Assembly (NCBI GenBank): GCA_000091205.1
Contig: AP006496.2
DNA length: 64,000 bases
Direction: 5' to 3' (one strand)
Source: Cyanidioschyzon merolae
Taxonomy: Eukaryota
The notes below the pieces were generated by a model. That model was not told where the DNA came from. It was given only the letters and a program-made list of their open reading frames with translations, and ran no database searches. Numbering within the stretch: position 1 is the first letter of the stretch; each line of letters opens with the position of its first letter. The translations under genes and the position numbers were made by a program. This document shows, in pieces, positions 2,650 through 39,439 of the stretch.

Positions 2650-3195
2650 GAGTCCCATAAACGCATCAAGAAAGCTTATCCTTTCAGTCGTATAGAGGTA
2701 AGCAAGCTCATTGAAAGCTCCATACAAGCTCCATAAAAGCTTATCCCTTCAATCGTATAGAGATAGGCAACCTCATTGAAAGCTCCTTCAAAGTTAATCC
2801 CTTCAATCGTATAGAGATAGGCAACCTCATTGAAAGCTCCGTAAAAGCTTATCCCTTCAATTGTATAGAGGTAAGCAAGCTCATTGAAAGCTCCATATAA
2901 GCTCCATAAAAGCTTATCCCTTCAATCGTATAGAGATAGGCAACCTCATTGAAAGCTCCTTCAAAGTTAATCCCTTCAATCGTATAGAGATAGGCAACCT
3001 CATTGAAAGCTCCGTAAAAGCTTATCCCTTCAATCTTATAGAGATTGGCAAGCTCATTGAAAGCTTATCCCTTCAGTCGTATAGAGGTAAGCAAGCTCAC
3101 TGAAAGCTTCTTCAAAGTTAATCCCTTCAATCGTATAGAGATAGGCAACCTCATTGAAAGCTCCATACAAGCTCCATAAAAGCTTATCCCTTTCG
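2650..3195. repeat. minisatellite of 58-61 bp units, about 9 copies, with a higher-order ~185-bp period (3 superunits), in the divergent SerRS/TIM50 intergenic region
   Basis: Direct reading shows the unit aagcttatcccttcaatcgtatagagataggcaacctcattgaaagctcc plus variable linkers (gtaa, ttcaaagtta, atacaagctccata). The block 2704-2893 recurs almost exactly at 2893-3082. Confidence 0.9.
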
Positions 3196-4566: not shown

Positions 4567-5940
4567 AGCTTTCACGAACTTTCAGATCGGAAGCGAGTCA
4601 TGCGAAAAGTTTGCGCTTTGCGTCCCCGTATCGAGCTGGTGAGTTCGCTGCGGCACGCGACGCGTCTGTGTTTTTTCTCGGGGGCGCGGGGCAAGCGTCT
4701 AGGATTGTTTACACGAATAAGAGAATCCGTCGTTGTGCGATGGATATCAGCATCAAGGAGAGCAGCAGCGATCATTGCGGAATTCAGACGTCCACGTACC
4801 TCGAATCACCACTAGCCACACTCTTCATCGCGTATAATGGATCGTTCATACGGTCGCCCAGGTGCCGAGTGCGTTCTGTGAGCGTCCAGTGTGACGCCTT
4901 TAGAGCCGGTGCAGACGCCGCACGCAGATAGAGCGGCTTTTGCGTACCACTGAGGGCGTTGGCTCTAGAACTGTCATCTAGTCGAGTGCAGGTACAGCGC
5001 GCTCGTTTCTGCCGCGACGAGCGCGCTCCTTTCGGGAACTCTGTCTGCACGCTTGCAGGTGCTGCCCAGCCTACGGAAGCTAGATATCATGAAGGGACGA
5101 TTTCGCACTTGATCATCACGCTGGTGGATGAGATTTTGCGAGACTTTGCTTTCCAGCGGGCGTCGCTGTGCATCTGGGTCTGGCGCTGCCCCAAGACTTG
5201 ACGAGGCGTCACATATGGCCGTGGTAGCTCGCCGCTGGAGCATCCACGCAATAGGAGTATGCTAGGGAGATGGCGGTAAAGGCACACCTCAGCCCGAGGG
5301 GCATTGTCGAGAGGGCTCGTCCACATCCATGTCAGAGGACGTTCATGTTTGCCATTTCGTGTTTATGCCAGTGGCGGCAGAGATGCATGACTGGGCGAGT
5401 CTCTTCAAACGACAAGGTTCGCGTGGCCTGCCGTGTAACGACAAGCGCCTGATTACACGAGTCACCAGAGGTTCCGCACCTGGCGACTCCCAACACGCAC
5501 GTGCACGAGTGGTACACCCGCATCCTCCGGGCAAACAAAGCGCACAAACGCTCATTGTACCCGGGTGTGCAGGGGCAGCAGCCGCGGTCACACGCACTCG
5601 GTGCAGTGAAACAGCGCAGGTTTCCTGTACCTGAGCGATACACCCAGAGATGGCTCTTATCGTGCGAGACAAATATCTTACGAACTCCATGTGATCAGCA
5701 AAGTACGCAAGGAAACATGGGGCACCTAGGCTCCGGGCGAAGGCCACTCAGCCGCCTCAGCGGGTGTCTTTGCCGGGGCGTCTTCCCTCGACGGAACGCA
5801 GCGTCTATTCGCATTCACCGGCACGACACCCTATTGAAGAGAAGCGCTCGCGTAGGCTCCACGCCGATAACACTCGTGATAATGTCAACGGCTGCGCAGC
5901 TAATAGCCCAGTAATGTGTGCCGCACCTGGCTCCGCTGTG

Positions 5941-6615
5941 CTACCTCTTCACCTCTATCTGCCAGAGGTCGACGTCGATGTCCACGGCACGTTCCCTATG
6001 AAACACGTACGTTGCGGGGAGATCGAAACGCAAGCGAGCGTACACCTGGGCCGTACACCCGAAACGCTCCAGCCTCCTCGATAAGTAACTGCGCGTGCTC
6101 GACTTGTGCAGAGAGTACACAAATCGGCGACTCAAGTGACATGCTACATCGAGGAAGGCGATGTCGGCGGATCGTTGTCGCGTTCCAAAGGGCGGATTAA
6201 GCACAGCGACGTCGAATGACTTTGGTGCCAATGCCAACGAGTTGGGCTGGACGTCCACCGCAGCAAACTCCAAGACTGCTCCGACGGACTGGGGACACAG
6301 TTCCCAGAGCGCTGCCGCATTGGCCCGTGCCAGCTCCAGGGCCTCGCTATCGACGTCCACTCCGAGCACGTGGTTGAGTCCAGCGAGACACAGTGCAAGA
6401 GCGAGTATTCCAGTCCCGGTGCCGAGGTCCACTGCCTGCACTGACCTCCGCTCATCTTCGTCGATGCATAGGGCAACATGGTGGGCGATTCTTGCCGCCA
6501 GATGAACCGGTGTCGTGTACTGCTCCAGGTGCACACGCGGGGACTGGAACTGGCGCCACGGAAGCTGTGAAAGCAGCGTCTCGATCTCACGAACGCTCGG
6601 CACCGAGCCACGCAT
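5941..6615 (-). CDS. METTL5-like N6-adenine (rRNA m6A) methyltransferase, Rossmann fold
   Basis: Residue 1 of the track ORF is GTG; the first ATG is residue 9. The protein aligns end-to-end with METTL5-type proteins: LEQYTTPVHLAARI, the SAM motif VDLGTGTGILALA, the catalytic NPPFG, and YSLHKSSTR...DIDVDLWQIEV. Confidence 0.8.
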   Translation of the reverse strand: MRGSVPSVREIETLLSQLPWRQFQSPRVHLEQYTTPVHLAARIAHHVALCIDEDERRSVQAVDLGTGTGILALALCLAGLNHVLGVDVDSEALELARANAAALWELCPQSVGAVLEFAAVDVQPNSLALAPKSFDVAVLNPPFGTRQRSADIAFLDVACHLSRRFVYSLHKSSTRSYLSRRLERFGCTAQVYARLRFDLPATYVFHRERAVDIDVDLWQIEVKR

Positions 6616-7109
6616 CCCAGTTCGGCAGACTTTCAGCACGCTGCGATGCCGAGTACACGTCGCTCGCAGGGCCTAGCAGGTCCGCTCCTTAAAGCCTACG
6701 CAGCGCACGCTCCAACACGCTGTTCCAGCGGACCTGTGGTTGTAATTCGGGCTTGCGGGGTGTGTCGCCCCGCTGCCGACGGTCGGTCCAGCTGCTTGTA
6801 GCACCCCCGCTACCTCCGTGGAAGCTGTTTTTCCTGCCAGCGGCGGGCGTTTGAATGAATCGTCGATAAAACACTGTCCCAGGCGCGTCGCAGTGCTCCC
6901 CAGCTGACGAGCACCCGAAGCCATTTCTGTTACCCGATGCGTCGCAGCGCTTTCGTATGGACCATCGGCGCGTTTGCTTCTAAGATGAGCATAGAGCGAA
7001 TAGATAGACTCACTCACACGCTTTCCGCAGGACTTATACGAGCGGGTGCCTGCTATGGGCTTTCACTCTCATCTTGTTCACTTCGAGTCTGAGAGGCTGG
7101 CCCGGAAAG

Positions 7110-8340
7110 TTGGCTCAAACCAGCTCCTTGGGTCTTCTACTGAGCACTGTATGTCGTCTAATGTTCATAGCAGCGTTGAAGTCTGGGATCACGAACTGGA
7201 TGCGTTTATTGTCTCTTATTAAACTCACCAATGCAAGGATCCCTCGAAATGCTGCCCTCGGTGCCATTTGGTGCTCCATCACCTCTCCAAGGTTTCCTAT
7301 TCCCAAAGTGCTCCGTTGCCTTCTCTCCATCTCGACGTTATGAAGGATACACCCCAGCACATCCATTAGATTTTTTAAACACATTTCTTTATGCCCCTAG
7401 GTGACGACCTTATAGGAGCGCGTAGGACTTGCGGAAGAAAGACGTCATGTGTCTCTGTGTACCACCGTGTTCTGAACGCTTCAGTGATTCGCCTAGTGGC
7501 GCGATCTTTACTTTTCACAATAGGAAACACTTCTTCAATGTGGTTGAACCGGAAGCGTACTGACGAATGAAATGCAGCCCTACTCCGGTAGAATTGGGCA
7601 AGGCTTCAATGCGAGGGGAATGGTGAAATTCCAAAAAGTCGAACAGAAGAACACAGCCAGACGTCAGGGAATCGTCTTCAAAGATTCTACGATGTGAAAA
7701 CTGTTGTATGAGCGTTCTCTGGAGTCGAAACTGAGGCCGCAAAAGAAATCCACTGCAGCTGGAGTAGAGAAATTCTTATGTATTTTCGATATCGATTGTA
7801 TATCCAACGGGCGCCCCTCATCGCGAATACTCATATCCACTGTGACGGTTCTGTGTGGAGCAAATCTCGTGGAATGAAAAAAACAACGTTCTTGTGGCTC
7901 ATAGCCGGCGCGATGTTTCAGGGACTGTGTTCTAGTCGCCATTTCGTTCGGACATGGCTGTGAACGATCTAGGACATTTTATGTGACTGTATGCCACTGG
8001 TTTCAGGACCATACGAAAAAGCTGTAGACAAAAACAGTCACCGGTGATGGCTGCTATCGTCGCTTTTTGTTCCCGCAAAGTCGGCAACGGGTCGTGTTCT
8101 ATCACTGACCTCATGCACGCGTCGAGAATATCCGTTTCTTTTCGCGGAGTTCATCTAATTCTTTCTCTAGTGTTCCTCGACCGTTTGAGTGTTGTTCCAT
8201 GACTGACATCAAGAATCAATACAGATCTCCTTCAAATATCCAGTATATAATATATCCTACATGAAATTCGACTTCGATATATACAGTATATTACAACGTG
8301 ATTCCCATCTCTTGCTATACATCGCAGATCGTGTCGAGTA
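7110..8340 (-). mobile_element. decayed, frameshifted copy of a transposon family carrying a Fanzor/TnpB-like gene (relic copy 1)
   Basis: Minus-strand fragment VIPDFNAAMNIRRHTVLSRRPKELV (7115..7384) matches the RuvC-III region [21 protein letters not shown] of the intact gene at 23223..24395. Upstream (7470-7560, minus strand) the fragment FRFNHIEEVFPIVKSKDRATRRITEAF resembles the Tc1/mariner C-terminal motif DLNPIENVWSILK. About 70% nucleotide identity to 31870..33190 in the same order and orientation. Confidence 0.65.
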
Positions 8341-8577
8341 ACCATGGGTTGAAAGCCTAAAAGATCGCGGATCGCAATCCCACCACCACCGTTCTGCTGT
8401 CTGGATCGCCGAGTCGCGAACGCTGTGGAGCCACGCTGTTCAGGGACACGTGGCAGATATCGAATGCTGCTGCTCCTCTAGCTCACGCATAGGTTGAGGC
8501 TATTTCGTAGCGCGGGCTGCCCCCAGGCAGTTGTGCTTTTCCCACTACCAGCAACATTGGAAAGTGATCGACGCGAG

Positions 8578-12308: not shown

Positions 12309-12442
12309 TACGCTATGTCGACCGTTTGCAAGGTTGGCTATATGAAGCGCTCACGCTGTACCTTGATCTGCAGTTAAACTGCGGTCGACCGTTTGCAAGG
12401 CTGGCTACGGGAAGCGCTCGCGCTCTACCTTGATCTGCAGTT
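12309..12442. repeat. 67-bp tandem repeat x2
   Basis: gtcgaccgtttgcaagg(t/c)tggcta...ccttgatctgcagttaaactg is read twice. Confidence 0.8.
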
Positions 12443-12811
12443 AAACTGTATTCATAAATCACTCTCACTGGAAGATGCGCTGCGAGCCGTTTGACAGCGA
12501 CGGCTTCCACTAGCATCGACCGATGCTGTGGACGTCCCATGGCCGGCGGAATCAGGTGTCTAAAAGTGACACACAAGGGGCGCTGGTAGCCAGCGTTCTC
12601 GGGTTCACAAGTGCTCCCGATATCGCAGCGTGCATGCTGCAGTGAAGCACGCTGCTCTTCCTGGTGTGTGTGCCGCTCGCGTCGGAGACCGTGCGATAGG
12701 CGCAAGGTCGTCAGCAAATCCCACAGGAATGCCGCTTTCTGAGCGTCGCGCGGATATGCCACTTGTTTAGGTGTGGCCCCGGCTTAAAAGGCGCTACCCA
12801 TCTATTTTATA

Positions 12812-13015
12812 GTGTATAGGATAATCGGGGCTAAGATAGGATCTCCAAGAATGCATTTGAAACGCGGTATCCGTCTCAATGGTGTAGGATAATTCAAGCT
12901 AAGCTGGGATCCCCAGGTGCGCGTTTGAAACGCGGTATCCGTCTTAATGGTGTAGGACAATCGAAGCTATACTAGGATCCCCGACTACGCGCTTCAACCG
13001 CACCACCAGTGCCGT
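12812..13015. repeat. ~68-bp degenerate tandem repeat x3
   Basis: gtgtaggataat...ggatcc...tttgaaacgcggtatccgtct(c/t)aatg is read three times. Confidence 0.75.
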
Positions 13016-13398
13016 ATCGAGGGCTGCGGTCGAGGCGAATCGCTCGATGCCCGGCACGACTGGACAGCAACGTGTAGCGCGTGCTGCTCGCTCAGGCACA
13101 GTTTCGTTGACCCCGGACGTCTGCCTCACGGCTGATCGATATCGTTACGCTTTTCGCGGCGCTTTCGAACGCGTGCTGTCCGTTTCGCGATCCCTGCGAT
13201 GAGCAAGCGGTACGCGATCTTGAAGGAAATGGCACACGCTGGGATGTCGGATCGCCGGCATCGATCTGCGCACGCGCCAGCGCGCCCTGGCGCATGCGTG
13301 CGCAACGGGCGCCTGATCAGCGGAGATTCGTGTTTTTGCTTGTTCGCAGAAGTAGCCCGCGTGCGGTTGCGATATCCTGAACCTGTGTTGCGCTCAAA

Positions 13399-13911
13399 AT
13401 GCCGGAAAAAGCGAGTCATCCGAAATATCTTGATATGGTGAAAGAGGCGATACGGAAGAATTATTCTGTGAAGGGCACAAGCCGACAGAAAATCAAGTCG
13501 TTTATTGAGCAGACGTACCATATTCAGGCCCTGAACAGCATTCTGCGAGCAACACTGGAGAAGGCTGCGACAGAGGGGGTAATTGAGAAGACGAGCGACG
13601 GCTCGCGGTACCGACTCACGAGCAAAGGACGCCTTTCCATGGAGAAGAAGAAGGAGAAAAAAATCCGTAAGCCGGCGAAAGTCACCAAGTCGGCGGTGAA
13701 GAAGGCGACTACTTCGAAAGCGAAGAAGCCGCGCAAGGCGGCCGTCAAAGTTAAGAAAGTCATCAAGCCGTCTATGAAGAAGACTTCGGCTCCGAAAGCG
13801 AAAAAGCTGGCAAAGCCTTCCAAGAAAGCAAGCGGTGCTGTGACGAAGAAGAGCGCTGCGAAACCGGCGAAGAAAGTCTCCATGAAGAAGGCGCCCAAGC
13901 CGAGCAAGTGA
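13399..13911 (+). CDS. linker histone H1
   Basis: ATG start confirmed. The N-terminal winged-helix globular domain HPKYLDMVKEAIRKNYSVKGTSRQKIKSFIEQTY is followed by a long Lys/Ala/Pro-rich tail (KKPRKAAVKVKKVIKPSMKK...). Confidence 0.9.
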   Translation: MPEKASHPKYLDMVKEAIRKNYSVKGTSRQKIKSFIEQTYHIQALNSILRATLEKAATEGVIEKTSDGSRYRLTSKGRLSMEKKKEKKIRKPAKVTKSAVKKATTSKAKKPRKAAVKVKKVIKPSMKKTSAPKAKKLAKPSKKASGAVTKKSAAKPAKKVSMKKAPKPSK

Positions 13912-15438
13912 GACAACTGGGGCTCGCGACCCAGCGATTCACCTCACAGAGGCATCGACGATACAATCCCGCCGGCGTTCAGCGACCTCTCCTCAACAGT
14001 CATTTGCACTCGGACTCTCAATTTCTCACTCCGATCCATGATAAAAAAGTCCCGCGTGGGGTCCGGTTAACCTGCGAGAACTGCCCCTCTTTTCGAATTC
14101 TACCACATGGTGCTTCCACCAGCGGTTTACACGCCGCCGCAGCAGCAGCAGCAGACAGCGCCTTGCACTAGAGCTTCTTCGGCATCGCTCGAAAATCGAC
14201 TGCCGCGTTCGCGACGCTTGCTGCGGTGTGTGCTCAAGCTTGTAGATGGCGCCGCACGGCCCAGATGAGCCAGTAGTCGTCAAGAGCGAAATGCGATGCC
14301 TTTTTCAGTGCTTGGGGGACATACGTGTGGCACGATAATGGCTCCCGACGCTCTGCCGTGTTCGAGTCGCGTATGCAAACAGATCTTCGCCCCGTCTGCT
14401 GCCGGCAAAATTGTTATTCGTTCCCGCAGTGCCTCCAACTGCTCCCAGTGCAAGTCTTTTCGACTCGTGTACAGTGCTTGGGAACGCAGGCCCTGTGCTC
14501 GTCCCAAGAGCCGTTCGGATACGCTAGCAAATCATCTGCGACTGCTTGGGATACTACGTGGGGAAGTATCGTTCTGGTTTTTTCATTCGTACCCAGAGAG
14601 CGTTTTCGCAGGGTCGCTTGTGATCTAAACCGCTCGTGGATGATGTTGGGCGCAGGTTCGCACGCCAGCGCACTGTGTGTGTGTATGTGAAGATTGAGTC
14701 ATAGTCGTCAGAGCGCCCAGCGGAGCGCGTGCTTTCGGTGAAACAGATCGCTTCAAGAATTGGACGCCGTCTCGAGGCCTGCCTGGTGCCTGCTCCACGT
14801 CATCCGAAAGAAACCTTCACATACGTGTTCAGCTCGAATGCTGTATTCGTAGCGTCCTCCTTATCCAATGTCATAATTAGGCCGAAAGACTGATACGTCC
14901 GCCATCAAGTTCTGTTGCCCAGCAAAAGACGTTCCAGGTGGCAGAGCAGAATCGCTTGAGCAGAGCTTTATCGGCTCCAGTCACTGCACGCTGCAAACAG
15001 TATCGATTACGAAGTAGATACACTAAGTAAAATCGAATAATGGAACACCTGTATCGTCTACAAGTTGCCTAGGAAGACCGATTCCGGTGTATCTATACGG
15101 CGCTCCAGCATCACTGGATTGCTTAACCGCACTACACCAGTGCCTTGCTTCATGCTTGGATCCAAACGTTCCCTCCTGGCCGCTGTTTCTTCATCGCATG
15201 GCTTCCGATTTTCAGCACAATGCCCGCAATGACTACGACACGACTTTTTCGATACTTCGCTTAACACAGAGTCTTGGGCGCTGCAGAAGCACGAGACATA
15301 TTCCGGATGTTGGTCGAGGCGTTGAACTCCCGGTGGAGAAAGTGCTTTTGCCCATGACTGCTGGGAAATGCGCACCGCAGTAAACCTGTCACCATAGACT
15401 ACCTTGCCAGCTGACGTGCGGTCAGCTTCACGTCCACC

Positions 15439-16347
15439 ATGTCGTACATTCGGACCTGTTCCTCTCTGTTTCTCAAGCTGCATCATCGTGCACCTCAGCT
15501 CGTGGTGCTTTCATGTCGTCCTGAACTTGTCCAAAGGAATCCTGCACAATCGGCTCCTGCATTCGTTTTACGCTCCGAGCGAAGGAGCATGAGTCCAGCC
15601 TTTGTGTTGAACAGCACGTTCAGCGTCATAGGCCATTACCAAACGACACGACGTATCGGTTATTTCCTTTTTCAACACAGTGAGCAAATTGGTGAATGCA
15701 CGCATCTTGCGAACGTGCAACCCGAAGCGCTGACGACACCAGTACGGTATCATGAACTCCTGCTAAATCTCATTCTCATATGCAATTTTGACGCTCGCAT
15801 ACTCCCTGAATCAAGTGATGAAAGTACGCCCTCTGCACGATACGGCGCCCAGAGCGTCGGCACAGGTCCGGACGGCATTCCTCAATCTGTTGGAATGTCC
15901 CGCGGCGTCTATGATGCCCAGCTGCAGATGATACTGAACGCTGGAAACCATGAGCAGCTTCCTGTGATATCCGTTCGGATCTTTGGATCCTTCATTATGG
16001 TTTGGAGGTACGTCGACGCTCATGATATTGCTGGACCTTGGATGCACGCCCACCACGAAGAGTTTCTTATCACCTACCGTGAACAGTTGGATACGACTCG
16101 CATTGTTCGACTCATGATTCGGTTTCCGATGAATTCGATGGAGATTAAGCCTTCGTTGGTCTGCAACGTTACTGTATGCTTCGTTCCGTTTTCGCCCGGT
16201 CTAGGAGAAATCTTGAGCGAGCTCTACCAATACATTTCGCGGACTCGTTTGAACTCTTCACATTTGCTTCCGGGTGTCCGCCCTAACCCGCTGAGGAGGC
16301 CACACAACATTGTAGACACTCATCTATGGCGATGTAATGAGCATTAA
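15439..16347 (+). CDS. hypothetical protein, no recognisable domain
   Basis: A 302-aa ATG-initiated ORF lying between recognised genes. It has no motif I can name and only moderate codon bias, so it may instead be a decayed element. Confidence 0.25.
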   Translation: MSYIRTCSSLFLKLHHRAPQLVVLSCRPELVQRNPAQSAPAFVLRSERRSMSPAFVLNSTFSVIGHYQTTRRIGYFLFQHSEQIGECTHLANVQPEALTTPVRYHELLLNLILICNFDARILPESSDESTPSARYGAQSVGTGPDGIPQSVGMSRGVYDAQLQMILNAGNHEQLPVISVRIFGSFIMVWRYVDAHDIAGPWMHAHHEEFLITYREQLDTTRIVRLMIRFPMNSMEIKPSLVCNVTVCFVPFSPGLGEILSELYQYISRTRLNSSHLLPGVRPNPLRRPHNIVDTHLWRCNEH

Positions 16348-22678: not shown

Positions 22679-23167
22679 TCAAGCTGTGCAGTTCGTTGAA
22701 CTGCCAGAGCCCGACGGATCCTCGCGCAGATGACCAACTACTTCGTATTTTTGGAGAAACTTCTCAAACCACTGGTACAGCGTCTCTTTTTCGTGCTCCG
22801 TCAAATCATCAATAGCGCCACAGACTTCGCCAGGTTCCGTGCTCATCTTTGCGAGTCCTCTGCTCGCGTTCTTCCCAGCAAAGACAAAGTACGGCCCACC
22901 GGGCCCATAAAAAGACCTCGCATCGGAGACGTCGAAAACTTCAGCCCGCGCCCCAGGCCGTGGCTGTACGGCCACGTAGATCGGCTGCCCTTTTGTTCCG
23001 TTGTACTGAGCAAGCTCTTCGCCAGTGAACGCCCTCGGTGCCGGCCGTTCATGGTGCCGTGGCGGCGGCTGCACTGCAGGGTTCTCAACGTGGTTACCCA
23101 TCAAGCGAAGCGCACCCAGCACGAATACACCGCCACCCAAAAGTAACCAGAGTCCAACTGCATCCAT
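22679..23167 (-). CDS. membrane-associated progesterone receptor component (PGRMC/Dap1)-like cytochrome b5 heme/steroid-binding domain protein
   Basis: The first ATG is residue 47 of track ORF 22679..23305 (MDAVGLWLLLGGGVFVLGALRL = N-terminal TM). The MAPR domain reads FTGEELAQYNGTKGQPIYVAV...VFDVS...FYGPGGPYFVFAGKNASRGLA. The 46 codons upstream of the ATG are translation of the transposon 3' flank. Confidence 0.8.
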   Translation of the reverse strand: MDAVGLWLLLGGGVFVLGALRLMGNHVENPAVQPPPRHHERPAPRAFTGEELAQYNGTKGQPIYVAVQPRPGARAEVFDVSDARSFYGPGGPYFVFAGKNASRGLAKMSTEPGEVCGAIDDLTEHEKETLYQWFEKFLQKYEVVGHLREDPSGSGSSTNCTA

Positions 23168-23222
23168 GATAGCGTCGAAGCGTTCACCAAACGCCGTTCT
23201 AAAGTAGAACGACGCCGACCGT

Positions 23223-24395
23223 TTACAGTAGAGGAGAGAAACCCGCCCTAGACAAGAAGTCTCCAACTGATGTGCAGACGCCTCCCGTCTTTTTCGACGG
23301 GTCACCCACTACTGCTTCCAACTTCTTCTCATATAGGTCGACTTTGAGAGGTTGTCCAATAAAGTTCATTGTTGTTGACTCTGGAGGTCTCTTCTCCAGC
23401 ACCGCACATCTCCTTACATTGATGGCGGCGTTTAAGTCCCGGTTCACGAATTCCATACGTTTCGTCCCGTTGATTGTACTTACTAATGGAAGGAGTCCAC
23501 GAACTTTCGCCCTCCTTTCCATTTGCTCCTCTGCCAGCTGTCCGTACTTTGCTATTTCCTCGGGGCTCCGTTGGCACTTTTCCATCGCCACTCTCTGAAG
23601 TGTGCAACCCAGCTCGTGGTGTGTGTACGATGTTCGAAACTCATCTATAGGTATCGTGACGAAACGCCTTGCGCACTCCTTGTACGCTCTCGTCGTTGGA
23701 GCTGGTGTACACCCTTTTTGGGTCTTCCATCGCCTTGCTCCGTACGCTACTACGAGCCCTTGACGGTCGTCCTCCTTCAAGGCGCTCAACTGGTTGAAAG
23801 AATTCGCGAACGCCCGCCGCTTACCACAATACAAATTCATTCGCAAACGAGCCCACCGGGACTTGGTATACTCATCCCACAGTGCATCCCAATGAGCAAC
23901 GCGAAATTCTATGAACTCCCGAAGAGCTTTAAAGTCCGCTCCGCGGCTCGTCACCTCGCTCAAAGTTTCCAGGCGATCCTTCATTCCTGCATTCCATGTC
24001 TCGATTTTCTTCCTTGCATTCACTATATCGGATTCTCGATAGTATATTGCTCTCGAGAATCTCAACAGATGCACGTCTTTCTGACGTAAGTTGCCGTCAG
24101 TACCATCTTCCTCACGCTTCGGTGCTACGATGGTTATGATATTGGTATTCCCAGGGTCCGCGCCAACGACAAAGTCGCTATCCCGCACTTTCTGCGTCGC
24201 AGGTTCCGCCTCCTTCTTCTCTTCATGCTTCGCCGCGTAAACGATAACGTGGTTATCCTGCACTTTCTGCGTCGCAGGATCCGCCGTCTTCTTATCTTCA
24301 TCCTTCCTCACGGACGAAGCCGAAGGCGGGACTGAACGATCTGCCTTCAACCGTCGATAGTGTACACACATGGCTACTCCATCGGGTTCGATCAT
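23223..24395 (-). CDS. TnpB/Fanzor-like RuvC-fold (OMEGA-type) nuclease, intact 390-aa copy
   Basis: Track ORF 23223..24422 starts at GTG; the first ATG is residue 10 (24393-24395). Motifs (track numbering): [16 protein letters not shown] at 84-99 is RuvC-I-like GxDxGxx[23 protein letters not shown] at 245-266 matches the TnpB bridge L.YKAE..G..V..V.P.YTSQ preceding the zinc finger. The finger itself is degenerate (HH...C...C instead of CxxC...CxxC). [16 protein letters not shown] at 326-341 is the RuvC-III hallmark D.NAA.NI. A candidate RuvC-II acidic cluster is LKEDD (215-219). Confidence 0.7.
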
Positions 24396-24477
24396 CCCAG
24401 TGAAAAACTTTTGCTTGATCACTTTGAGAGGTTTGAAATCGAATATATTCTTCCAGTACGTCTTCCGGTTCTTACCG

Positions 24478-25326
24478 GTTAACTTGCGTCAGAAAGACGT
24501 GCATCTGTTGAGATTCTCGAGAGCGATATACTATCGAGAATCCGATATAGTGAATGCAAGGAAGAAAATCGAGACATGGAATGCAGGAATGAAGGATCGC
24601 CTGGAAACTTTGAGCGAGGTGACGAGCCGCGGAGCGGACTTTAAAGCTCTTCGGGAGTTCATAGAATTTCGCGTTGCTCATTGGGATGCACTGTGGGATG
24701 AGTATACCAAGTCCCGGTGGGCTCGTTTGCGAATGAATTTGTATTGTGGTAAGCGGCGGGCGTTCGCGAATTCTTTCAACCAGTTGAGCGCCTTGAAGGA
24801 GGACGACCGTCAAGGGCTCGTAGTAGCGTACGGAGCAGGGCACTGGAAGACCCAAAAAGGGTGTACACCAGCTCCAACGACGAGAGCGTACAAGGAGTGC
24901 GCAAGGCGTTTCGTCACGATACCTATAGATGAGTTTCGAACATCGTACACACACCACGAGCTGGGTTGCACACTTCAGAGAGTGGCGATGGAAAAGTGCC
25001 AACGGAGCCCCGAGGAAATAGCAAAGTACGGACAGCTGGCAGAGGAGCAAATGGAAAGGAGGGCGAAAGTTCGTGGACTCCTTCCATTAGTAAGTACAAT
25101 CAACGGGACGAAACGTATGGAATTCGTGAACCGGGACTTAAACGCCGCCATCAATGTAAGGAGATGTGCGGTGCTGGAGAAGAGACCTCCAGAGTCAACA
25201 ACAATGAACTTTATTGGACAACCTCTCAAAGTCGACCTATATGAGAAGAAGTTGGAAGCAGTAGTGGGTGGCCGGTCCAAAAAGACGGGGAGGCGTCTGC
25301 ACGTCAGTTGGAGACTTTTTGTCTAG
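24478..25326 (+). pseudogene. 5'-truncated inverted copy of the Fanzor/TnpB-like gene
   Basis: It starts at the codon matching residue 111 ([10 protein letters not shown]) of the intact copy and lacks the RuvC-I region. There are point differences (GARRW vs GAGHW) and an indel altering the C-terminal 20 residues. The apparent N-terminus MATPSGS... (24370-24477) is antisense of the intact copy's 5' end. Confidence 0.75.
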
Positions 25327-25634
25327 GGCGGGTTTCTCGCCACTACTGTAAACGGTCGGCGTCGTCCGACTTTAGAACGGCGTTCGGTGTCGGTGGCCCT
25401 TTTACGAGGTTTCTTCCGACGCAACCTCCAGCTTTTGAACAGTTGACCGCGAACCGACACCCGCATCCGTTTTTTTACACAACACAACCTGAGCAAAAAG
25501 TTTGCAGAGAGTCTTACACGTTACGAAAGCGAAATATGTTGGTCCGAGCTACTTGTGCCCTGAAATCCTCGGATAATAAGCAAATACACCACGCATGGAA
25601 AAGTTGAATCTGCGTCTATTCGAACGCACTTTGG

Positions 25635-29888: not shown

Positions 29889-31583
29889 TTACACATCCGA
29901 CAGGAGGGCAGTCCTCGAACCGTCCGCGCGAGGGCCGGGGTCGTCCGTCTGAGCAGCCGCTCGGCGTGACCGTATGCAGCGAACTATTACAGCAGCAAGG
30001 CATAACAATAGAGCCACTGCCAGAACCAGGCCAAACAGCAAGGCCGCACTGCGCGAAACATGAAATCCAAAGATAGCGATGTCCTTAGTCGAGCCAGCGC
30101 GTGGCAACATGTCGGTCGCATTCGACGAGGTGTACACAATACCGCGATCTCCGGCTGCAGGCATTCCGCAGTTCTCTGCCGCCGGCGCGAAACCGATCCG
30201 GGAGTTCTCTCGATCAAACACTGTGACATAAGCTCGCATGAATGTGTCTCCAAGAATGACCCGTCCATTGACAAGTTCCCCCGTAACGTGCTGAATGCCA
30301 AAACAACGAAATGTTCGGCCATTTTTCTGGGCACGCAGCATATACAACTCCGGAGGAACGCTCAGTTCGACACCGCCTGCCAGCCGGATATTGATCGGTG
30401 GAAGGCGCGAAACGTGCCTGTCGGTCAGCGTTGCGCATCGACCGGTTTCGAGCCAGGTTTTTTCGCCGCATAGGCCTGGTACTTGGTCACAGTACCGGGA
30501 TTGGAGGTGCTCTCGCAATGTGCCGAAGGCGCTCGTGCTTATCACGATCAGTGTTGTGCCTGAGTCGACAATGGCGGATCGGATCTCTGGGAGACCAGCG
30601 CTCTCATCGGTGCCGAAGCGAACCGACTCGACGCCAACCTCGTAGTACGTGCGAACCGCACGATTCACCATAGGTACCCAGCGGTACTCGCCCTTGCGCA
30701 TCTCCGGGCCGGCAGCACCGCCGAACACCAAAGCCCCAGATGTGTCCGTCAAACACAGCGCAAACATATCGCGCGGGACAACCCCCGTGCGTACCATCGT
30801 GTCGAAGACTGGCGGGACACATGATGGATTACACGCCAGCGACGGGTATGCGAGACCCCAGATACCGTCCACATCAACGTGCTCAAATGATGCAGAGTCC
30901 AGGAGGATCCCACCAAAGTATGCGGGATACACTGACAACCCTGTTTGCGTAAGCGTTATACGGCCAACATGGAGCGCCCCAATGGCAAAACTGCCGTCCC
31001 CGTAAATGAGTCGAAAGCCACATGCTTTGGTGTCTACTGGAGCACAGCAGGCCTTGCTCGCTTCAGAGCACGCACCACACAGGCTATTACATGTCGACGG
31101 TTTGCAAATAGACTCATTCGAGCAGGATATGCGTGTCAAGTCGGGGTTCGCTAGAGTCACCCGACGATCGCCCTTGAGGCAGTTCTTGCACTGGCTCAGA
31201 GGAAAAGCTATTGCGGAGCTTCCTGTATCAATCTGGACGTGAACTGTCTGATTATCCACCGATATAGCAACATAGTACTCACCGACGTTCACGATTCCTC
31301 CAGCGAGCGGGTTTACGGGCAGCTTATCTTCTTGAGAGGAGCCGCCCGGGACGCCACTCACCGCTGGTCGGAGAAGCGCGGCAAGCTCGCCGTGCCTCCT
31401 TGGCGCCGAATAGATCCTTTCCACTGTTCCAGGACGCTTTTCGAGAGGCAGTACAATGCCGTCGCGTCCAGCGAGCTCTGCGACAGCTGCAGGCCCCCTG
31501 CCAAGAACCATATTGTCGAGCAGGCCTACGGCGCCTGCAAGGCAGAGGACGCTCACCAGCAATACAGCAAGCGCTCGTATCAT
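29889..31583 (-). CDS. pepsin-like (A1) aspartic protease with signal peptide and C-terminal transmembrane anchor
   Basis: ATG start. Signal peptide MIRALAVLLVSVLCLAGAVG. Catalytic motifs VQIDTGSSAIAF and IVDSGTTLIV. C-terminal TM LLFGLVLAVALLLCLAAVIV plus a basic tail. The pro-region contains LPLEKR. Confidence 0.85.
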   Translation of the reverse strand: MIRALAVLLVSVLCLAGAVGLLDNMVLGRGPAAVAELAGRDGIVLPLEKRPGTVERIYSAPRRHGELAALLRPAVSGVPGGSSQEDKLPVNPLAGGIVNVGEYYVAISVDNQTVHVQIDTGSSAIAFPLSQCKNCLKGDRRVTLANPDLTRISCSNESICKPSTCNSLCGACSEASKACCAPVDTKACGFRLIYGDGSFAIGALHVGRITLTQTGLSVYPAYFGGILLDSASFEHVDVDGIWGLAYPSLACNPSCVPPVFDTMVRTGVVPRDMFALCLTDTSGALVFGGAAGPEMRKGEYRWVPMVNRAVRTYYEVGVESVRFGTDESAGLPEIRSAIVDSGTTLIVISTSAFGTLREHLQSRYCDQVPGLCGEKTWLETGRCATLTDRHVSRLPPINIRLAGGVELSVPPELYMLRAQKNGRTFRCFGIQHVTGELVNGRVILGDTFMRAYVTVFDRENSRIGFAPAAENCGMPAAGDRGIVYTSSNATDMLPRAGSTKDIAIFGFHVSRSAALLFGLVLAVALLLCLAAVIVRCIRSRRAAAQTDDPGPRADGSRTALLSDV

Positions 31584-31649
31584 CTAGGTTTTAAACTGAA
31601 GTTTCTGCACAGAGTTCTTGCCCTGGAACAGAATTAGAGTTTGGATCCT

Positions 31650-33190
31650 CCTAAGCGGACTTGAGCGGCAGCGCCTCGCTTCTATGCAGGGCTTGTAGCA
31701 GGCAAAACGCGCCAATACTTATTTTGTAAAACGAAAAATGCTTCGTGGACATGCAGGATAAACTAATACCGATGCGCAGACGCCTAAGAGCGTTTTTGGA
31801 CCAGTCGCCTGCTATCGGCTTCAGTTTCTCCTTGCACACTTCGAGCATCAGAGCCTGCCTCACAAAGTTGTATCGAGTCGGCTCCTGTGGTTTCATCTTC
31901 AGCACCGCACATCTTCTCTTATTGATGGCGGCGAAGTATCAGTTTGCGATCTCTTTGCATTCATTGACGCTGCTTGAGCTCACCGATGGAGGGATTCCAA
32001 GAACACTTGCCGTCTTTGCCACTGTACTCTCGTCATCGTCCTGTTGGGCAAACACTGTTCCTGACCCATTTCCCCTCCTCTGCTTCTTTATTTGATCTTC
32101 TCCGTTCGGCTTTAGTCGACAAGAGGATTTTTTCGTTCTTTTCCGGCAGTCGGCGATGTCGGGCCTCGAAAATCCTCGGCGTCCATGTCCATACCTTCTC
32201 CTTCGGTTTCTTATTTCTTCAAATCAACGCACTTGCTTATGCCCTTAGATGAAGACATTCCCTGCGGGAGAAGGGCTTGCGGACGGCAGACATGGTATGC
32301 CCCACTGTGTCGCCGTGTGCTGAACGCTTCAGCGATTCGCCCAGTGCAGCGATTATTGCGTTTCACGATAGAAAACACTCCTTCGATGGCATTGAAGCAC
32401 GTAGAGCACCGAGGAAGGAAAAGCAGCTCTATCCCTATAGAACCGGCAAAATCCCGAACGCAAGGGGAATGGTGAAATGTCACCTGACTTCAGGGAGAAG
32501 CCTTCAGTGATTTGGCAAAGCGAGTGTGATTGTGTGAGCCTTCTCTACGAGAAAGACTGCGGCCGCCAAAAGAATCCGCTGCATCTAGAATCGATGATGA
32601 TTTCCGAGTTATCTTCGAGTTCGATCGGATATTCAACGGGCTCGCTGCTCCTGGACTATCCGAGCACGCTCCGACCGTATCATCCAAAGGAAGTCGCATC
32701 GATTGAAGAAACAAACCGACGTCTCTCTGCTGCATATCGATACTACCTATCCAGGCACGTTGTTGTAGTTACGATTTCGGTGGAAGATGGCCGTGCGTGG
32801 AACTGGACCCCATTTTTGCGACTGTATCCCAGTATTTTTAGGACAACAGGAACAAGCTATCGAGAAACAGAGACGCCCATGGTGGCTACTTTAGTCGCTT
32901 TCGCTTTCAGTAAAGTCATCGACGAGTCATTTTCTACCATTGGCGGCAAGCACGCAATAAGAATACCCGTTTTTGGCGCGGAGCGCATATGCTTCTTTCT
33001 TTCCGTGTTCCTATATCATCTCTGTATTGTTGCATGACTGATCTGAAGGAGAAAAGTAGTCCTCCTTGAGCTGTTCAGTGCAGAATATATCCTACATGCA
33101 ATTCGTCTAGGATATATACAGTACATTCCAGCATGATTTCGATCCCATCCTATACATCGCAGCTGGGTTGGAGCGTAAATGAGTTGAGAC
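31650..33190 (-). mobile_element. decayed copy 2 of the Fanzor-carrying transposon family
   Basis: Minus-strand fragments YFAAINKRRCAVLKMKPQEPTRYNFVRQALMLEVCKEKLKPIAGDWSKN match [48 protein letters not shown] of the intact gene. ELLFLPRCSTCFNAIEGVFSIVKR (32211..32483, minus strand) resembles Tc1/mariner LPPYSPDLNPIENVWSILKR. The copy is colinear with 7110..8340. Confidence 0.65.
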
Positions 33191-36765: not shown

Positions 36766-37695
36766 ATGGGAACTGCACACGAGTCACTTGTTGTCGCAAC
36801 CTGGGAGTTCTCGCAAAGCGGAGTCGAAAGCTGTTTTGACTGCCTTCGGAAAGGTGGAAAACCGCTCGACGCAGTTGAAACTGGCATACACGTTGTAGAA
36901 CTCGAACCGACTGTGACCTCAGTCGGATACGGAGGCCTGCCGAACGCGAACGGCGAACTAGAGCTCGACGCAGCCATCACGGACGGTGCCCACTTCGGGG
37001 CTGTGTTTGCTTTGAGGGGATATCGCAGCGCGATCGGGATCGCTCGGGGAGTTCTGGAGCGCAGCGAGCATACGGCACTAGCGGGCAACGGCGCTGTGAA
37101 CTTTGCCCAGGAAGTTCTCGGTGAAGCACCCTTGCCCGATTCGGAGCTGCTAACCGAACACGCTCGACGCCGTCTGGCGGAATACCGAGCCGGCAGGTTC
37201 CAAGGACGGCCCAATGAATCGCATGACACCGTAGGGATGATAGCGGCTCAAAGCACAGGTGATATTGCCGCCGGCTGCGCCACTTCGGGATACCCGTTCA
37301 AGCGACCCGGCCGAGTGGGCGACTCACCGCTACCCGGCGGCGGACTTTTCTGTGAATCGGGGCTGGGGGCGGCGGTAGCTACTGGTGATGGTGACGACCT
37401 CATGCGTCTGTGCCCGACGCATCTCATTGTCGAACTCATGCGAAATGGACAGAGTCCCCAGCGCGCATGTGAAGAGGCCGTTCAGCGGGTCATGAGATAC
37501 CGTGAGCAGACAGGTCGAGATTGCCGTGGCGCGTTCATTGCCGTGCGCTGTGATGCCCTCGCTTGGGGTGCACATGCGACGCACGAAGGCTTCGTGGTTG
37601 CCCATGCCGATGGTCGACGCATGGATCAATCATTGCTTATACCTGTTGAGGTACCCGAAGCGAGGAACAAGCCCTGGCGACGCGTCTGTGTCTAG
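36766..37695 (+). CDS. plant-type asparaginase / isoaspartyl peptidase (Ntn-hydrolase)
   Basis: ATG start. The autoproteolytic site DTVGMIA with a Thr nucleophile and GAAVATGDGDDLMR are present. The last ~30 codons and the TAG stop lie inside the first unit of a 94-bp tandem repeat. Confidence 0.8.
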   Translation: MGTAHESLVVATWEFSQSGVESCFDCLRKGGKPLDAVETGIHVVELEPTVTSVGYGGLPNANGELELDAAITDGAHFGAVFALRGYRSAIGIARGVLERSEHTALAGNGAVNFAQEVLGEAPLPDSELLTEHARRRLAEYRAGRFQGRPNESHDTVGMIAAQSTGDIAAGCATSGYPFKRPGRVGDSPLPGGGLFCESGLGAAVATGDGDDLMRLCPTHLIVELMRNGQSPQRACEEAVQRVMRYREQTGRDCRGAFIAVRCDALAWGAHATHEGFVVAHADGRRMDQSLLIPVEVPEARNKPWRRVCV

Positions 37696-39412: not shown

Positions 39413-39439
39413 GGCAAGAGCTTCGAACGATAGCTATCC

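What the first reader, a model, noticed from the sequence alone, without database searches (positions are those of the whole stretch)
6615..7200. All three Fanzor 3' ends point into, and sit within ~60-300 bp of, the start codon of a same-strand gene
Three cases. The intact copy lies immediately before the PGRMC-like ATG (23167). Relic 2 (stop-equivalent ~31651) lies before the aspartic protease 1 ATG (31583). Relic 1 (~7117 plus ~250 bp of C-terminus and flank) lies before the METTL5-like ATG (6615).

Three out of three in one orientation suggests insertion preference for 5' leaders or promoters, or guide-directed homing next to a motif. Alternatively the element 3' region is co-opted as promoter sequence. 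In relic 1 the intervening ORF 6673..7017 is in the same frame as the METTL5-like gene, separated by a single TAG.
Basis: inference. Interest (0 to 1): 0.5.

Follow-up and report, generated by a model that had tools for sequence, protein, structure and literature searches.

The report
Fanzor elements abut host gene starts
In the red alga Cyanidioschyzon, copies of a known Fanzor-carrying mobile element sit far more often than chance allows with their tail end pointing into, and within about 100 bases of, the start codon of a host gene, so that these genes must be transcribed from or through the element.

Summary
The window is Cyanidioschyzon merolae 10D. The elements are the published Fanzor1 family CMe-1A and relatives.

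The three cases exist but are mis-described:
- The "intact" copy is only the 3' 1.3 kb of a roughly 3.3 kb element, fused to an inverted partial duplicate.
- The two "relics" belong to a short related family.
- Two further Fanzor-derived 3' ends in the window face gene 3' ends. The window therefore gives 3 of 5, which is not significant.

The idea nevertheless generalises. I examined 45 independent CMe-1A copies from Cyanidioschyzon metagenome contigs:
- The element has a sharp, hairpin-forming 3' terminus about 66 nt past the stop codon.
- In 33 of 42 copies the next gene is on the same strand, start-first (null 41%).
- In 22 of 42 its ATG lies within 110 nt (null 4.4%; p about 3e-19).
- Of 20 near-ATG start codons checked, 15 have the length of an annotated 10D protein.

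Upstream genes are mostly divergent. The three syntenic loci tested in the sister genus Cyanidiococcus lack the element. I found no shared target motif in the flank.

Best reading: insertion into promoter regions, plus survival only of copies whose 3' end supplies or permits transcription into the gene. No transcript mapping or reporter evidence was obtained. The only hint is the junction positions of a few chimeric contigs.

The parts
23223..24422 (-). Copy A. A Fanzor1 ORF of 399 aa that is 5'-truncated (it corresponds to about residue 209 onward of the 593-aa relative P0025). The RuvC motifs GADPG, DEFRTS and NRDLNAA are present.
23185..23250 (-). Conserved 3' tail of copy A. This is the last ~66 nt of the element, and the canonical stop lies 66 nt from the end in other copies. 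It contains the GCCACTACTGTA box and the terminal hairpin CGTCGTTCTA-CTT-TAGAACGGCG. It is a candidate omega-RNA scaffold and/or core promoter. Homology to other copies ends at about 23185.
23168..23184 (-). The 17-nt spacer AACGCTTCGACGCTATC between the element end and the PGRMC-like ATG. If the element makes an omega-RNA as SpuFz1 does, this is where the guide would lie.
22679..23167 (-). PGRMC-like cytochrome b5-domain gene (BAM81291). It is the host gene immediately downstream of copy A.
24481..25389 (+). Copy B. An inverted partial duplicate of copy A (98-99% identical, element positions ~2378 to the end). Its 3' end at 25389 faces the 3' end of MSH5 (stop at 25635).
7030..8352 (-). Relic 1. 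A member of a short ~1.2-1.5 kb family. Only its 3' part (7441..7058, equivalent to aa 238-370) is Fanzor-like. It lies in the divergent spacer between BCAT (ATG 8715, +) and the METTL5-like gene.
6616..7029 (-). Gap between detectable relic-1 homology and the METTL5-like ATG at 6615. The extrapolated element end is about 6930. The gap contains the low-coding-potential ORF 7017..6673, which is in frame with METTL5 and separated from it by TAG 6675-6673.
5941..6615 (-). METTL5-like rRNA methyltransferase gene (BAM81285).
31627..33187 (-). Relic 2. The same short family as relic 1. The Fanzor-like 3' part is 32005..31764, and a degenerate tail remnant (GGCGCGTTTTGCCTGCTACAAG) lies at about 31700. 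It ends about 45-100 nt before the pepsin ATG.
29889..31583 (-). Aspartic protease (pepsin-like) gene (BAM81293), downstream of relic 2.
15058..16173 (-). Fifth Fanzor-like remnant, from a divergent family (30% aa identity to copy A). Its 3' end points toward the 3' end of the H1-like gene at 13399-13911 (+).

Best explanation
WHAT IS SHOWN

- The repeats are the published Fanzor1 element family CMe-1A of Cyanidioschyzon merolae, plus a short derivative family and a second, divergent family.
- CMe-1A has a sharply defined 3' terminus about 66 nt past the Fanzor stop codon. The terminus ends in a conserved, thermodynamically stable hairpin.
- Its 5' ends are heterogeneous.
- Copies are non-randomly placed:
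  - They lie in promoter-bearing intergenic regions, mostly divergent 5'-5' ones.
  - The 3' terminus points into a host gene on the same strand.
  - In half of the copies it lies within 110 nt of that gene's annotated ATG.
  - The 5' side usually keeps a gap of hundreds of nt to the upstream gene.
- The three syntenic loci tested in the sister genus Cyanidiococcus are empty.

WHAT IS INFERRED

1. The element integrates preferentially in promoter or transcription-start regions.
2. Only sense-oriented copies survive this close to a start codon. In that orientation, transcription initiating in or reading out of the element's 3' region continues into the host gene. This is the same region that, by analogy with SpuFz1, would produce an omega-RNA running into the flank. 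The host gene therefore stays expressed.
3. The displaced native promoter then becomes dispensable and is lost in this streamlined genome. That loss locks the element's 3' part in place as the gene's promoter and 5' leader.

Antisense insertions at the same sites would silence the gene and be purged.
For: Identity of the element:
- The window's proteins are exact matches to C. merolae 10D entries.
- Bao & Jurka 2013 (PMC3627910) describe CMe-1A: about 150 copies, about 3 kb, no terminal inverted repeats or target-site duplications.
- A profile of 65 relatives that includes copy A hits solved Fanzor1 structures 9CF0 (2.8e-21), 8GKH (1.4e-12) and 9CER (2.7e-7), with the RuvC motifs aligned.

The 3' terminus:
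- The boundary of repeated sequence coincides with the inferred end in almost every locus.
- The terminal 50 nt fold with a mean z-score of -1.9, against +0.24 for a coding control and +0.05 for the flank.
- Two subfamilies keep a hairpin with different stem sequences.

The census:
- 33 same-strand, 9 convergent and 3 with no gene, of 45 copies. In 22 of 42 the ATG is within 110 nt.
- Analytic null: 47% and 3.6%.
- Pipeline-matched random-position null: 41% and 4.4%, giving p about 1e-6 and 3e-19.
- 15 of the 20 near-ATG ORFs tested have exactly the length of an annotated 10D protein. These include RPL37A, ATP synthase beta, TFB5, phosphoglucomutase and GGPP synthase, on many chromosomes.

Asymmetry between the two sides:
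- 18 of 20 upstream genes are divergent.
- The gap on the 5' side has a median of about 340 nt even with lenient homology criteria.

Promoter located by elimination:
- The MSH5-PGRMC spacer is 2467 nt, of which 2205 nt are Fanzor-derived.
- The orthologous regions in Cyanidiococcus carry no Fanzor homology: the 1263-nt MSH5-PGRMC spacer, the 1.5-kb region upstream of RPL37A, and the BCAT-METTL5 spacer.

Hint of transcript 5' ends near the element end:
- Three independent chimeric contigs join foreign or self sequence to RPL37A 19-25 nt before its ATG. Two of them join at the same base, -25. These joins lie about 9-15 nt past the inferred element end.
- Two chimeric contigs join to PGRMC inside the tail.

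Architecture precedent: the SpuFz1 omega-RNA spans the element's 3' end and extends 14-15 nt into the flank (PMC10432273).
Against: - There is no transcript mapping, CAGE or reporter evidence. Promoter activity of the 3' region is inferred, not shown.
- The chimeric-contig junctions are not all at one position. For one gene they lie at -21 and +18. The sample type (metatranscriptome or metagenome) was not verified.
- The non-coding tail is less conserved than the adjacent coding sequence (pairwise identity 67% against 81%). That does not look like strong selection on a shared promoter.
- In 9 of 42 copies the 3' end faces a gene's 3' end, twice within 35 nt. Proximity therefore also arises without promoter donation.
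- The census uses the best 80 of 461 matches from environmental Cyanidioschyzon contigs, not the 10D genome itself. Gene calls rest on a codon-usage heuristic.
- The window's relics belong to a short family. In 5 extra copies of that family I saw no clear bias.
Confidence: 0.5

Rival explanations
1. Chance in a compact genome. Any surviving insertion must lie between genes and so sits near some gene end, and three of three is a small-sample accident.
For: Within the window the true count is 3 of 5 Fanzor-derived 3' ends facing a gene start. With a null of 41-47% per copy that is unremarkable.
Against: The census of 42 independent copies gives 79% same-strand and 52% within 110 nt, against 41% and 4.4% expected. 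No copy with both flanks readable lies in a convergent spacer, although such spacers make up 31% of intergenic bases.
Confidence: 0.03
2. Intrinsic, strand-specific targeting by the transposition machinery. The element is inserted at transcription start regions in a fixed orientation relative to transcription, for example by using single-stranded DNA of the transcription bubble or an R-loop, much as HUH-type 'peel-and-paste' elements use one strand. No selection on promoter function is needed.
For: The element has a sharp 3' terminus with a terminal hairpin, heterogeneous 5' ends, and no terminal inverted repeats or target-site duplications. These features recall elements that use single-stranded intermediates. 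The placement is tightly coupled to gene starts.
Against: No transposase partner was identified. Distances to the ATG vary from about 0 to 108 nt and there is no junction motif. In 9 of 42 copies the end faces a gene's 3' end. All copies seen are old (about 80% identity) and fixed in the strains sampled, so insertion preference cannot be separated from survival.
Confidence: 0.2
3. RNA-guided retention or homing anchored on gene starts. The omega-RNA guide is the first ~15-20 nt of the flank, which here is the host gene's 5' leader or start codon. An empty allele would be cut there. Error-prone repair would damage an important gene, so only homology-directed re-copying of the element survives. 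Copies at such sites are therefore the ones that persist.
For: The Fanzor1 guide lies immediately 3' of the conserved scaffold. In 8 copies the ATG is within 21 nt of the element end, so the guide would cover it. The RuvC catalytic residues are conserved across the family. Many downstream genes are housekeeping genes.
Against: Most copies have broken ORFs and copy A lacks its N-terminal third. No omega-RNA, target-adjacent motif or cleavage data exist. This model does not by itself explain why the 5' end avoids gene starts, or why the copies are oriented as they are.
Confidence: 0.12
4. The primary constraint is on the element's 5' side. Fanzor needs a host bidirectional promoter to be expressed, so persisting copies diverge from an upstream gene. 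The short 3' gap is then secondary, produced by deletion of non-essential DNA in a streamlined genome.
For: 18 of 20 upstream genes are divergent from the element. That is an even stronger bias than on the 3' side in the same subset. Two convergent-type copies also have gaps of 13 and 34 nt, which shows that gaps can shrink in any context.
Against: If the downstream gene's own promoter lay in the gap, deleting it would be harmful. Yet RPL37A, TFB5 and ATP synthase beta have gaps of 12-92 nt. Most copies are pseudogenes, so selection for Fanzor expression cannot maintain them now.
Confidence: 0.15

Closest known systems
CMe-1A, the Fanzor1-encoding repeat of C. merolae (Bao & Jurka 2013, PMC3627910)
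   Same: It is the same organism and the same protein family. The size (about 3 kb), the divergence (about 80% to consensus), the lack of terminal inverted repeats or target-site duplications, and the occasional intact ORFs all match.
   Different: The paper could not define the termini and says nothing about position relative to genes. New here are the sharp hairpin-ending 3' terminus, the short derivative family, and the start-codon-abutting, orientation-biased placement.
Spizellomyces punctatus Fanzor1 (SpuFz1) locus and omega-RNA (Saito et al. 2023, PMC10432273; PDB 8GKH)
   Same: The protein family profile is homologous, with the RuvC motifs aligned. [quoted passage not shown]
   Different: SpuFz1 elements have 30-nt inverted repeats, and their omega-RNA was demonstrated by RNA sequencing. 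CMe-1A has no inverted repeats and its RNA is untested. No bias toward gene starts is mentioned in the passages I read of that paper or of Jiang et al. 2023.
Promoter-targeting transposons such as Tf1 of Schizosaccharomyces pombe, the P element of Drosophila and Mutator of maize (from my own knowledge, not checked here)
   Same: Insertions are enriched in nucleosome-poor promoter or 5' leader regions of RNA polymerase II genes, sometimes with effects on the neighbouring gene's expression.
   Different: Those preferences were shown with de novo insertions and, as I recall, are largely independent of orientation. Here only old, fixed copies are seen, the bias is strongly orientation-dependent, and the element end sits within tens of nt of the ATG.
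TnpB homing in IS200/IS605 elements and the TnpB-derived RNA-guided repressors TldR (PMC10705468; mechanism from my own knowledge)
   Same: Both involve an RNA-guided TnpB-family protein whose guide derives from, or targets, sequence next to the element or at a promoter.
   Different: No nuclease, guide or repression activity is shown for CMe-1A. TldR proteins are nuclease-dead, whereas this family keeps the RuvC triad.
Helitrons (from my own knowledge; Bao & Jurka report that Fanzor1 is often carried by them)
   Same: No terminal inverted repeats, no target-site duplications, a hairpin near the 3' end, and variable 5' regions.
   Different: The 3' end is not CTRR (it reads ...GGCGTTTGGTG or ...GACGTTTG), the hairpin reaches the terminus, and no Rep/helicase partner was seen.

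Membership tests
Fanzor1 (eukaryotic TnpB-like RNA-guided nuclease) | Sequence homology to experimentally characterised Fanzor1 proteins | tested here: met
   A profile of 65 relatives including window copy A hits Parasitella Fz1 9CF0 (E=2.8e-21), Spizellomyces Fz1 8GKH (1.4e-12) and Guillardia Fz1 9CER (2.7e-7). Copy A alone, and a shallow profile, gave no Pfam, NCBIfam or PDB hit.
Fanzor1 (eukaryotic TnpB-like RNA-guided nuclease) | RuvC catalytic triad: D in DPG, E in DEFRT, D in NRDxNAA | tested here: met
   The D and E columns are invariant and the third D is at least 90% conserved, both in 17 close homologues and in 65 diverse ones. All three are present in copy A.
Fanzor1 (eukaryotic TnpB-like RNA-guided nuclease) | C4 zinc-ribbon (TNB / OrfB_Zn_ribbon) between RuvC-II and RuvC-III | tested here: inconclusive
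   Copy A has THHELGC...EKC instead of two CxxC pairs. PF07282 is not detected in it. It is detected only weakly (E=0.0023, below the cut-off) in one distant relative.
Fanzor1 (eukaryotic TnpB-like RNA-guided nuclease) | Complete protein with N-terminal REC/WED region | tested here: not met
   This applies to the window's copy A. It aligns to the 593-aa relative P0025 only from residue 209, and to a full element only from about nt 1913 of 3288. Most other copies also have broken ORFs.
Fanzor1 (eukaryotic TnpB-like RNA-guided nuclease) | Omega-RNA encoded at the element's 3' end, with the guide in the flank | tested here: inconclusive
   A conserved 66-nt tail has two hairpins. The terminal 50 nt fold with a mean z-score of -1.9 against about 0 in controls. 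There is no Rfam match, RNAalifold recovered only the small first hairpin, and there are no RNA data.
CMe-1A repeat family (Repbase, Bao & Jurka 2013) | A ~3 kb C. merolae repeat encoding Fanzor1, ~80% identity among copies, no terminal inverted repeats or target-site duplications | tested here: met
   The organism is confirmed. Element spans are 2.1-3.7 kb. Pairwise identity is 81% in the coding 3' part. I noticed no inverted termini, and there are at least 3 types of 5' end. The Repbase consensus itself was not available for direct alignment.
Promoter-targeting transposon (Tf1 / P element / Mutator type) | De novo insertions preferentially enter promoter or 5' leader DNA | not testable with these tools
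   Only old, fixed copies were available, and they are identical in arrangement in all strains sampled. The distribution is compatible with such targeting, but it confounds insertion with survival.
Transposon-derived host promoter (exaptation) | Host gene transcription initiates inside element-derived sequence | not testable with these tools
   Indirect evidence only. Just 17 + 246 nt of the MSH5-PGRMC spacer are not element-derived. The orthologous loci in Cyanidiococcus are empty. Chimeric-contig junctions cluster within about 55 nt of the element end.
Helitron | 5'-TC...CTRR-3' termini with a hairpin ~10 nt before the 3' end, inserted between A and T | tested here: not met
   The 3' ends read ...GGCGTTTGGTG or ...GACGTTTG. 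The hairpin's 3' arm reaches the terminus. The first flank base is rarely A or T-specific.

The most novel reading that the evidence does not exclude
CMe-1A Fanzor1 elements may be promoter-replacing cassettes that dock at transcription start sites. On this reading their outward-firing 3' end both drives the host gene and produces an omega-RNA whose guide is that gene's own 5' leader or start codon. The element would then be anchored like a resistance-proof homing drive on important genes. Alternatively, the Fanzor ribonucleoprotein would act in RNA-guided control of the genes the element sits on. Either would be a new biological role for eukaryotic OMEGA systems.
Probability: 0.15. Interest if true: 0.85.

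Novelty: new variant of a known kind. Interest (0 to 1): 0.62.

Why it matters
Fanzor nucleases are well studied as editing tools, but little is established about what they do in their own genomes.

If a Fanzor element family systematically sits tail-first on host start codons, three things follow:
1. It gives a concrete, testable natural context for omega-RNA guides, which would here be host 5' leaders.
2. It suggests that dozens of housekeeping genes in a minimal eukaryotic genome, including RPL37A, ATP synthase beta and TFB5, run on transposon-derived promoters.
3. It would explain why these elements persist in a genome that has shed almost all other repeats.

C. merolae has efficient homologous recombination. 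Deleting or swapping single copies would test this directly.

Tried and rejected
- Direct annotation of the Fanzor ORF. Pfam and NCBIfam gave nothing for copy A or its close homologues. A shallow profile against the PDB gave only noise. Homology appeared only with a profile of diverse relatives.
- AlphaFold2 on a 38-sequence alignment. The model was unusable (mean pLDDT 37.8), so no fold search was run.
- RNAalifold on the tail. It recovered only the small first hairpin. The two subfamilies place the terminal hairpin in different alignment registers, so column-wise covariation could not be counted. I used per-copy folding z-scores instead.
- Rfam. No match around copies A and B.
- Search for empty alleles within Cyanidioschyzon. 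Every contig carrying the METTL5, pepsin or PGRMC genes had the same arrangement as the window.
- Contigs L009 and L010. They looked like empty sites but are chimeras with unrelated sequence of different GC content.
- Using more contig look-ups to find transcript-like short contigs for TFB5 and the PEP translocator. The tool returned only long metagenome contigs.
- The 10D RPL37A protein was not on record for a locus look-up.
- Defining the element's 5' end and a target-adjacent motif. This failed because at least three types of 5' end exist.
- Contig start points about 10-25 nt after a TATA-like CTATATGAG. I rejected these as evidence for start sites, because that segment is the most conserved part of the repeat and would break assemblies anyway.
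- The in-frame ORF 7017..6673. Rejected as meaningful.
Full report
**1. Where the window comes from**

Five window proteins are exact matches to Cyanidioschyzon merolae 10D entries on an 852,727-bp chromosome:
- METTL5-like, BAM81285
- PrimPol, BAM81290
- PGRMC-like, BAM81291
- MSH5, BAM81292
- pepsin, BAM81293

Pfam confirms the domain assignments. The METTL5 assignment is backed by hundreds of homologues annotated as METTL5.

**2. What the repeats are**

Bao & Jurka 2013 (PMC3627910) described CMe-1A in this alga. It is a Fanzor1-encoding repeat of about 3 kb with about 150 copies, each about 80% identical to the consensus. It has no terminal inverted repeats or target-site duplications, and its class is unknown.

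The window's ORF 24422..23223 gave no Pfam, NCBIfam or PDB hit on its own. It does have 261 close homologues, almost all from hot-spring metagenomes. A full HMMER scan found 1,420 representative relatives.

A profile of 65 diverse relatives that includes the window copy matches solved Fanzor1 structures:

| Structure | Organism | E-value |
|---|---|---|
| 9CF0 | Parasitella | 2.8e-21 |
| 8GKH | Spizellomyces | 1.4e-12 |
| 9CER | Guillardia | 2.7e-7 |

The DPG, DEFRT and NRDxNAA motifs are aligned and conserved. The Fanzor1 label is therefore correct.

**3. Anatomy in the window**

Translated and nucleotide searches find five Fanzor-derived pieces, not three.

Copy A (24484..23185, -):
- It is only the 3' ~1.3 kb of a ~3.3 kb element.
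- The 593-aa relative P0025 aligns to it only from residue 209.

Copy B (24481..25389, +):
- It is a 98-99% identical inverted partial duplicate that abuts A head-to-head.
- Its 3' end faces the MSH5 stop codon, 246 nt away.

Relics 1 and 2:
- They are colinear with each other (66% over about 1.2 kb).
- Similar ~1.2-1.5 kb copies occur in the flanks of several metagenome loci.
- Little beyond their last ~250 nt is homologous to CMe-1A.
- They are therefore members of a short derivative family, not copies that decayed in place.

The fifth piece (16173..~15058, -):
- It is 30% identical to copy A at the protein level.
- It points toward the 3' end of an H1-like gene.

So within the window 3 of 5 ends face a gene start, which is not significant.

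**4. The element's 3' end**

I fetched 80 metagenome loci carrying relatives. De-duplicating by flank left 45 independent copies.

- Their sequences stay alignable through a tail of about 66 nt after the canonical stop. The consensus is GGGCGGGTTTCTCGCCACTACTGTACACCGTTGGCGTCGTTCGACTTTCGAACGGCGTTTGGTG. Similarity then stops abruptly.
- The boundary of repeated sequence coincides with this point in almost every locus. Left boundaries give element spans of 2.1-3.7 kb and fall into at least three types.
- The last 50 nt fold much better than shuffled controls. The mean z-score is -1.9, against +0.24 for coding sequence and +0.05 for flank.
- A second subfamily keeps a terminal hairpin with a different stem: CGTTTTTC-TTTT-GAAAGACG instead of CGTCGTTCGA-CTT-TCGAACGGCG.

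In SpuFz1, the conserved RNA scaffold occupies this same position and the guide is the next 14-15 nt of flank. By that analogy the guide of copy A would be the 17-nt spacer plus the PGRMC ATG.

There is no Rfam match and there are no RNA data.

**5. Census**

*Method.* For each of the 45 copies I called the nearest downstream gene, using a codon-usage score trained on long ORFs. The score recovers the annotated window genes.

*Result.*

| Nearest downstream gene | Copies |
|---|---|
| Same strand, start-facing | 33 |
| Convergent | 9 |
| No gene called | 3 |

In 22 of the 42 copies with a called gene, the ATG lies within 110 nt of the element end.

*Expected by chance.*

| Null model | Same strand | Same strand and ≤110 nt |
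|---|---|---|
| Analytic, from intergenic classes in the same DNA | 47% | 3.6% |
| Same pipeline at 1,500 random intergenic positions | 41% | 4.4% |

Against the pipeline-matched null, p is about 1e-6 for orientation and about 3e-19 for proximity.

*Check of start codons.* Of the 20 near-ATG ORFs I looked up, 15 fall in 90% clusters with annotated C. merolae 10D proteins of identical length. Some are identical in sequence. They lie on many chromosomes. Examples, with the distance from element end to ATG:

| Gene | Distance (nt) |
|---|---|
| RPL37A | 34 |
| ATP synthase beta | 92 |
| TFB5 | 12 |
| PEP translocator | 13 |
| MLO2-like | 39 |
| phosphoglucomutase | 108 |
| GGPP synthase | 77 |
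| propionyl-CoA carboxylase beta | 10 |

**6. The other side of the element**

- In 18 of the 20 loci with a callable upstream gene, that gene is divergent from the element.
- The gap to it has a median of about 340 nt, even when homology to a single other copy is accepted.
- Intergenic class for the 18 loci with genes called on both sides: 11 divergent, 2 tandem-sense, 5 tandem-antisense, 0 convergent.
- By base count, divergent spacers are 25% and convergent spacers 31% of intergenic DNA.

The placement is therefore in promoter-bearing spacers, and it is asymmetric. The 3' end abuts a start codon and the 5' end does not.

**7. Comparison with the sister genus**

In Cyanidiococcus yangmingshanensis the syntenic loci contain no Fanzor homology:
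- The RPL37A locus.
- The pepsin-MSH5-PGRMC-PrimPol-H1-TGT block.
- In a Cyanidiococcus-like contig, the TGT-BCAT-METTL5 block.

Its MSH5-PGRMC spacer is 1263 nt. In the window the same spacer is 2467 nt, of which 2205 nt are Fanzor-derived. That leaves 17 nt next to the PGRMC ATG and 246 nt next to the MSH5 stop.

Upstream of RPL37A, the two species become similar only from a shared CAAGTC about 25-30 nt before the ATG. In Cyanidioschyzon everything upstream of that point is the Fanzor tail.

**8. Hints of transcript ends**

Several short contigs join unrelated or self sequence to these genes at recurring points:
- RPL37A: three contigs from three samples join 19-25 nt before the ATG. Two of them join at exactly -25.
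- PGRMC: two contigs join 71 nt before the ATG, inside the tail.
- Another gene: junctions at -21 and +18.

Such junctions are what reverse-transcriptase template switching at RNA 5' ends would give. The Lemonade Creek study did produce many JGI metatranscriptomes (PMC11662350). I could not verify the sample types, however, and the positions are not unique. I treat this only as a hint that transcripts begin near the element end.

**9. Interpretation**

Shown:
- The identity of the element.
- Its sharp, structured 3' terminus.
- The strong bias in orientation and proximity.
- The empty orthologous sites.

Inferred:
- Integration into promoter or start-site regions.
- Survival only of sense copies, because transcription from or through the 3' region keeps the host gene expressed.
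- Subsequent loss of the displaced native promoter, so the element's 3' part becomes fixed as the promoter and 5' leader.

Against a simple promoter reading:
- The tail is less conserved than the adjacent coding sequence (67% against 81% pairwise identity).
- In 9 of 42 copies the end faces a gene's 3' end.
- There is no expression evidence.

There is no shared motif in the flank, so homing to a motif is not supported. Most copies have broken ORFs, which limits any role for the protein at present. The remaining rivals are listed with their tests: strand-specific targeting, guide-anchored retention on important genes, and dependence on a divergent host promoter combined with deletion.

**10. 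Novelty**

The element family is known. In the passages I retrieved from the Fanzor papers, and in the two literature searches aimed at this question, nothing mentions its placement relative to gene starts.

Transposons that favour promoters, and transposon-derived promoters, are known kinds. New here is a Fanzor element whose omega-RNA end systematically abuts host start codons in one orientation. That placement puts the presumptive guide in the host gene's 5' leader.

Noticed in passing
window 23185-24092 and 24481-25389: Copies A and B form a near-perfect inverted duplication (809 nt at 99% plus 102 nt at 93%) around a 388-nt unique centre. This is a palindrome-like structure filling the MSH5-PGRMC spacer. 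The same arrangement is present in metagenome contigs L001 and L002, and other contigs break at it.
   Followed up: partly
window 24158-24231 and 24233-24306: A 75-nt tandem repeat lies inside the Fanzor ORF. It encodes ~25-aa [16 protein letters not shown] units. Homologues carry from about 2 to 7 or more such units (for example P0001 and P0006), which accounts for part of the length variation of the element.
   Followed up: partly
window 15058-16173 (-): A second, divergent Fanzor1 family remnant (30% aa identity to copy A) lies between PrimPol and the H1-like gene. It is absent from the syntenic Cyanidiococcus region. The long + strand ORF 15439..16347 is antisense to it and is probably spurious.
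   Followed up: partly
L009 2398, L010 1628, L111, L112, L117 (about 19-25 nt before the RPL37A ATG): Chimeric contigs join unrelated sequence (a kinesin-like gene at 61% GC, an AT-rich sequence, or the gene's own coding region) to Cyanidioschyzon genes at recurring positions near the Fanzor tail end. These may be template-switch artefacts marking RNA 5' ends. The sample type was not verified.
   Followed up: partly
L122-L130, about 800 nt downstream of the PEP translocator gene (e.g. L123 3381-3797): A 138-aa ORF with a Pfam DDE_3 (Tc1/mariner-type transposase) hit lies near one CMe-1A locus. It may be a remnant of a DNA transposase in a genome where the mobilising enzyme of CMe-1A is unknown.
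   Followed up: no
window 4911-4965 (+): A 55-nt match (76%) to the 5' region of a full-length CMe-1A copy lies in the convergent spacer next to the METTL5 3' end. It may be a fragment of the TE-N2_CMe-like 5' module.
   Followed up: no
window 39385-39880; 2671-3167; 12814-13017; 12317-12448; 37594-37888: Several tandem-repeat arrays unrelated to the finding: period 41 nt (nine overlapping in-register copies reported), periods ~54-65 nt, 68 nt x3, 67 nt x2, and 94 nt x3. Some lie inside ORFs.
   Followed up: no
L045 939-1325 and L024 1789-2175: Two otherwise independent CMe-1A loci share the same 128-aa minus-strand ORF 255-256 nt upstream of the element's detectable 5' boundary. This suggests a longer element variant or a duplicated segment.
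   Followed up: no
P0006, P0009 and other homologues; L136: Precomputed Pfam PF26935 (DUF8286) marks many family members, mostly the longer ones, but was not recovered by my own hmmscan. The Fanzor family thus seems to be covered in Pfam only as a domain of unknown function.
   Followed up: no
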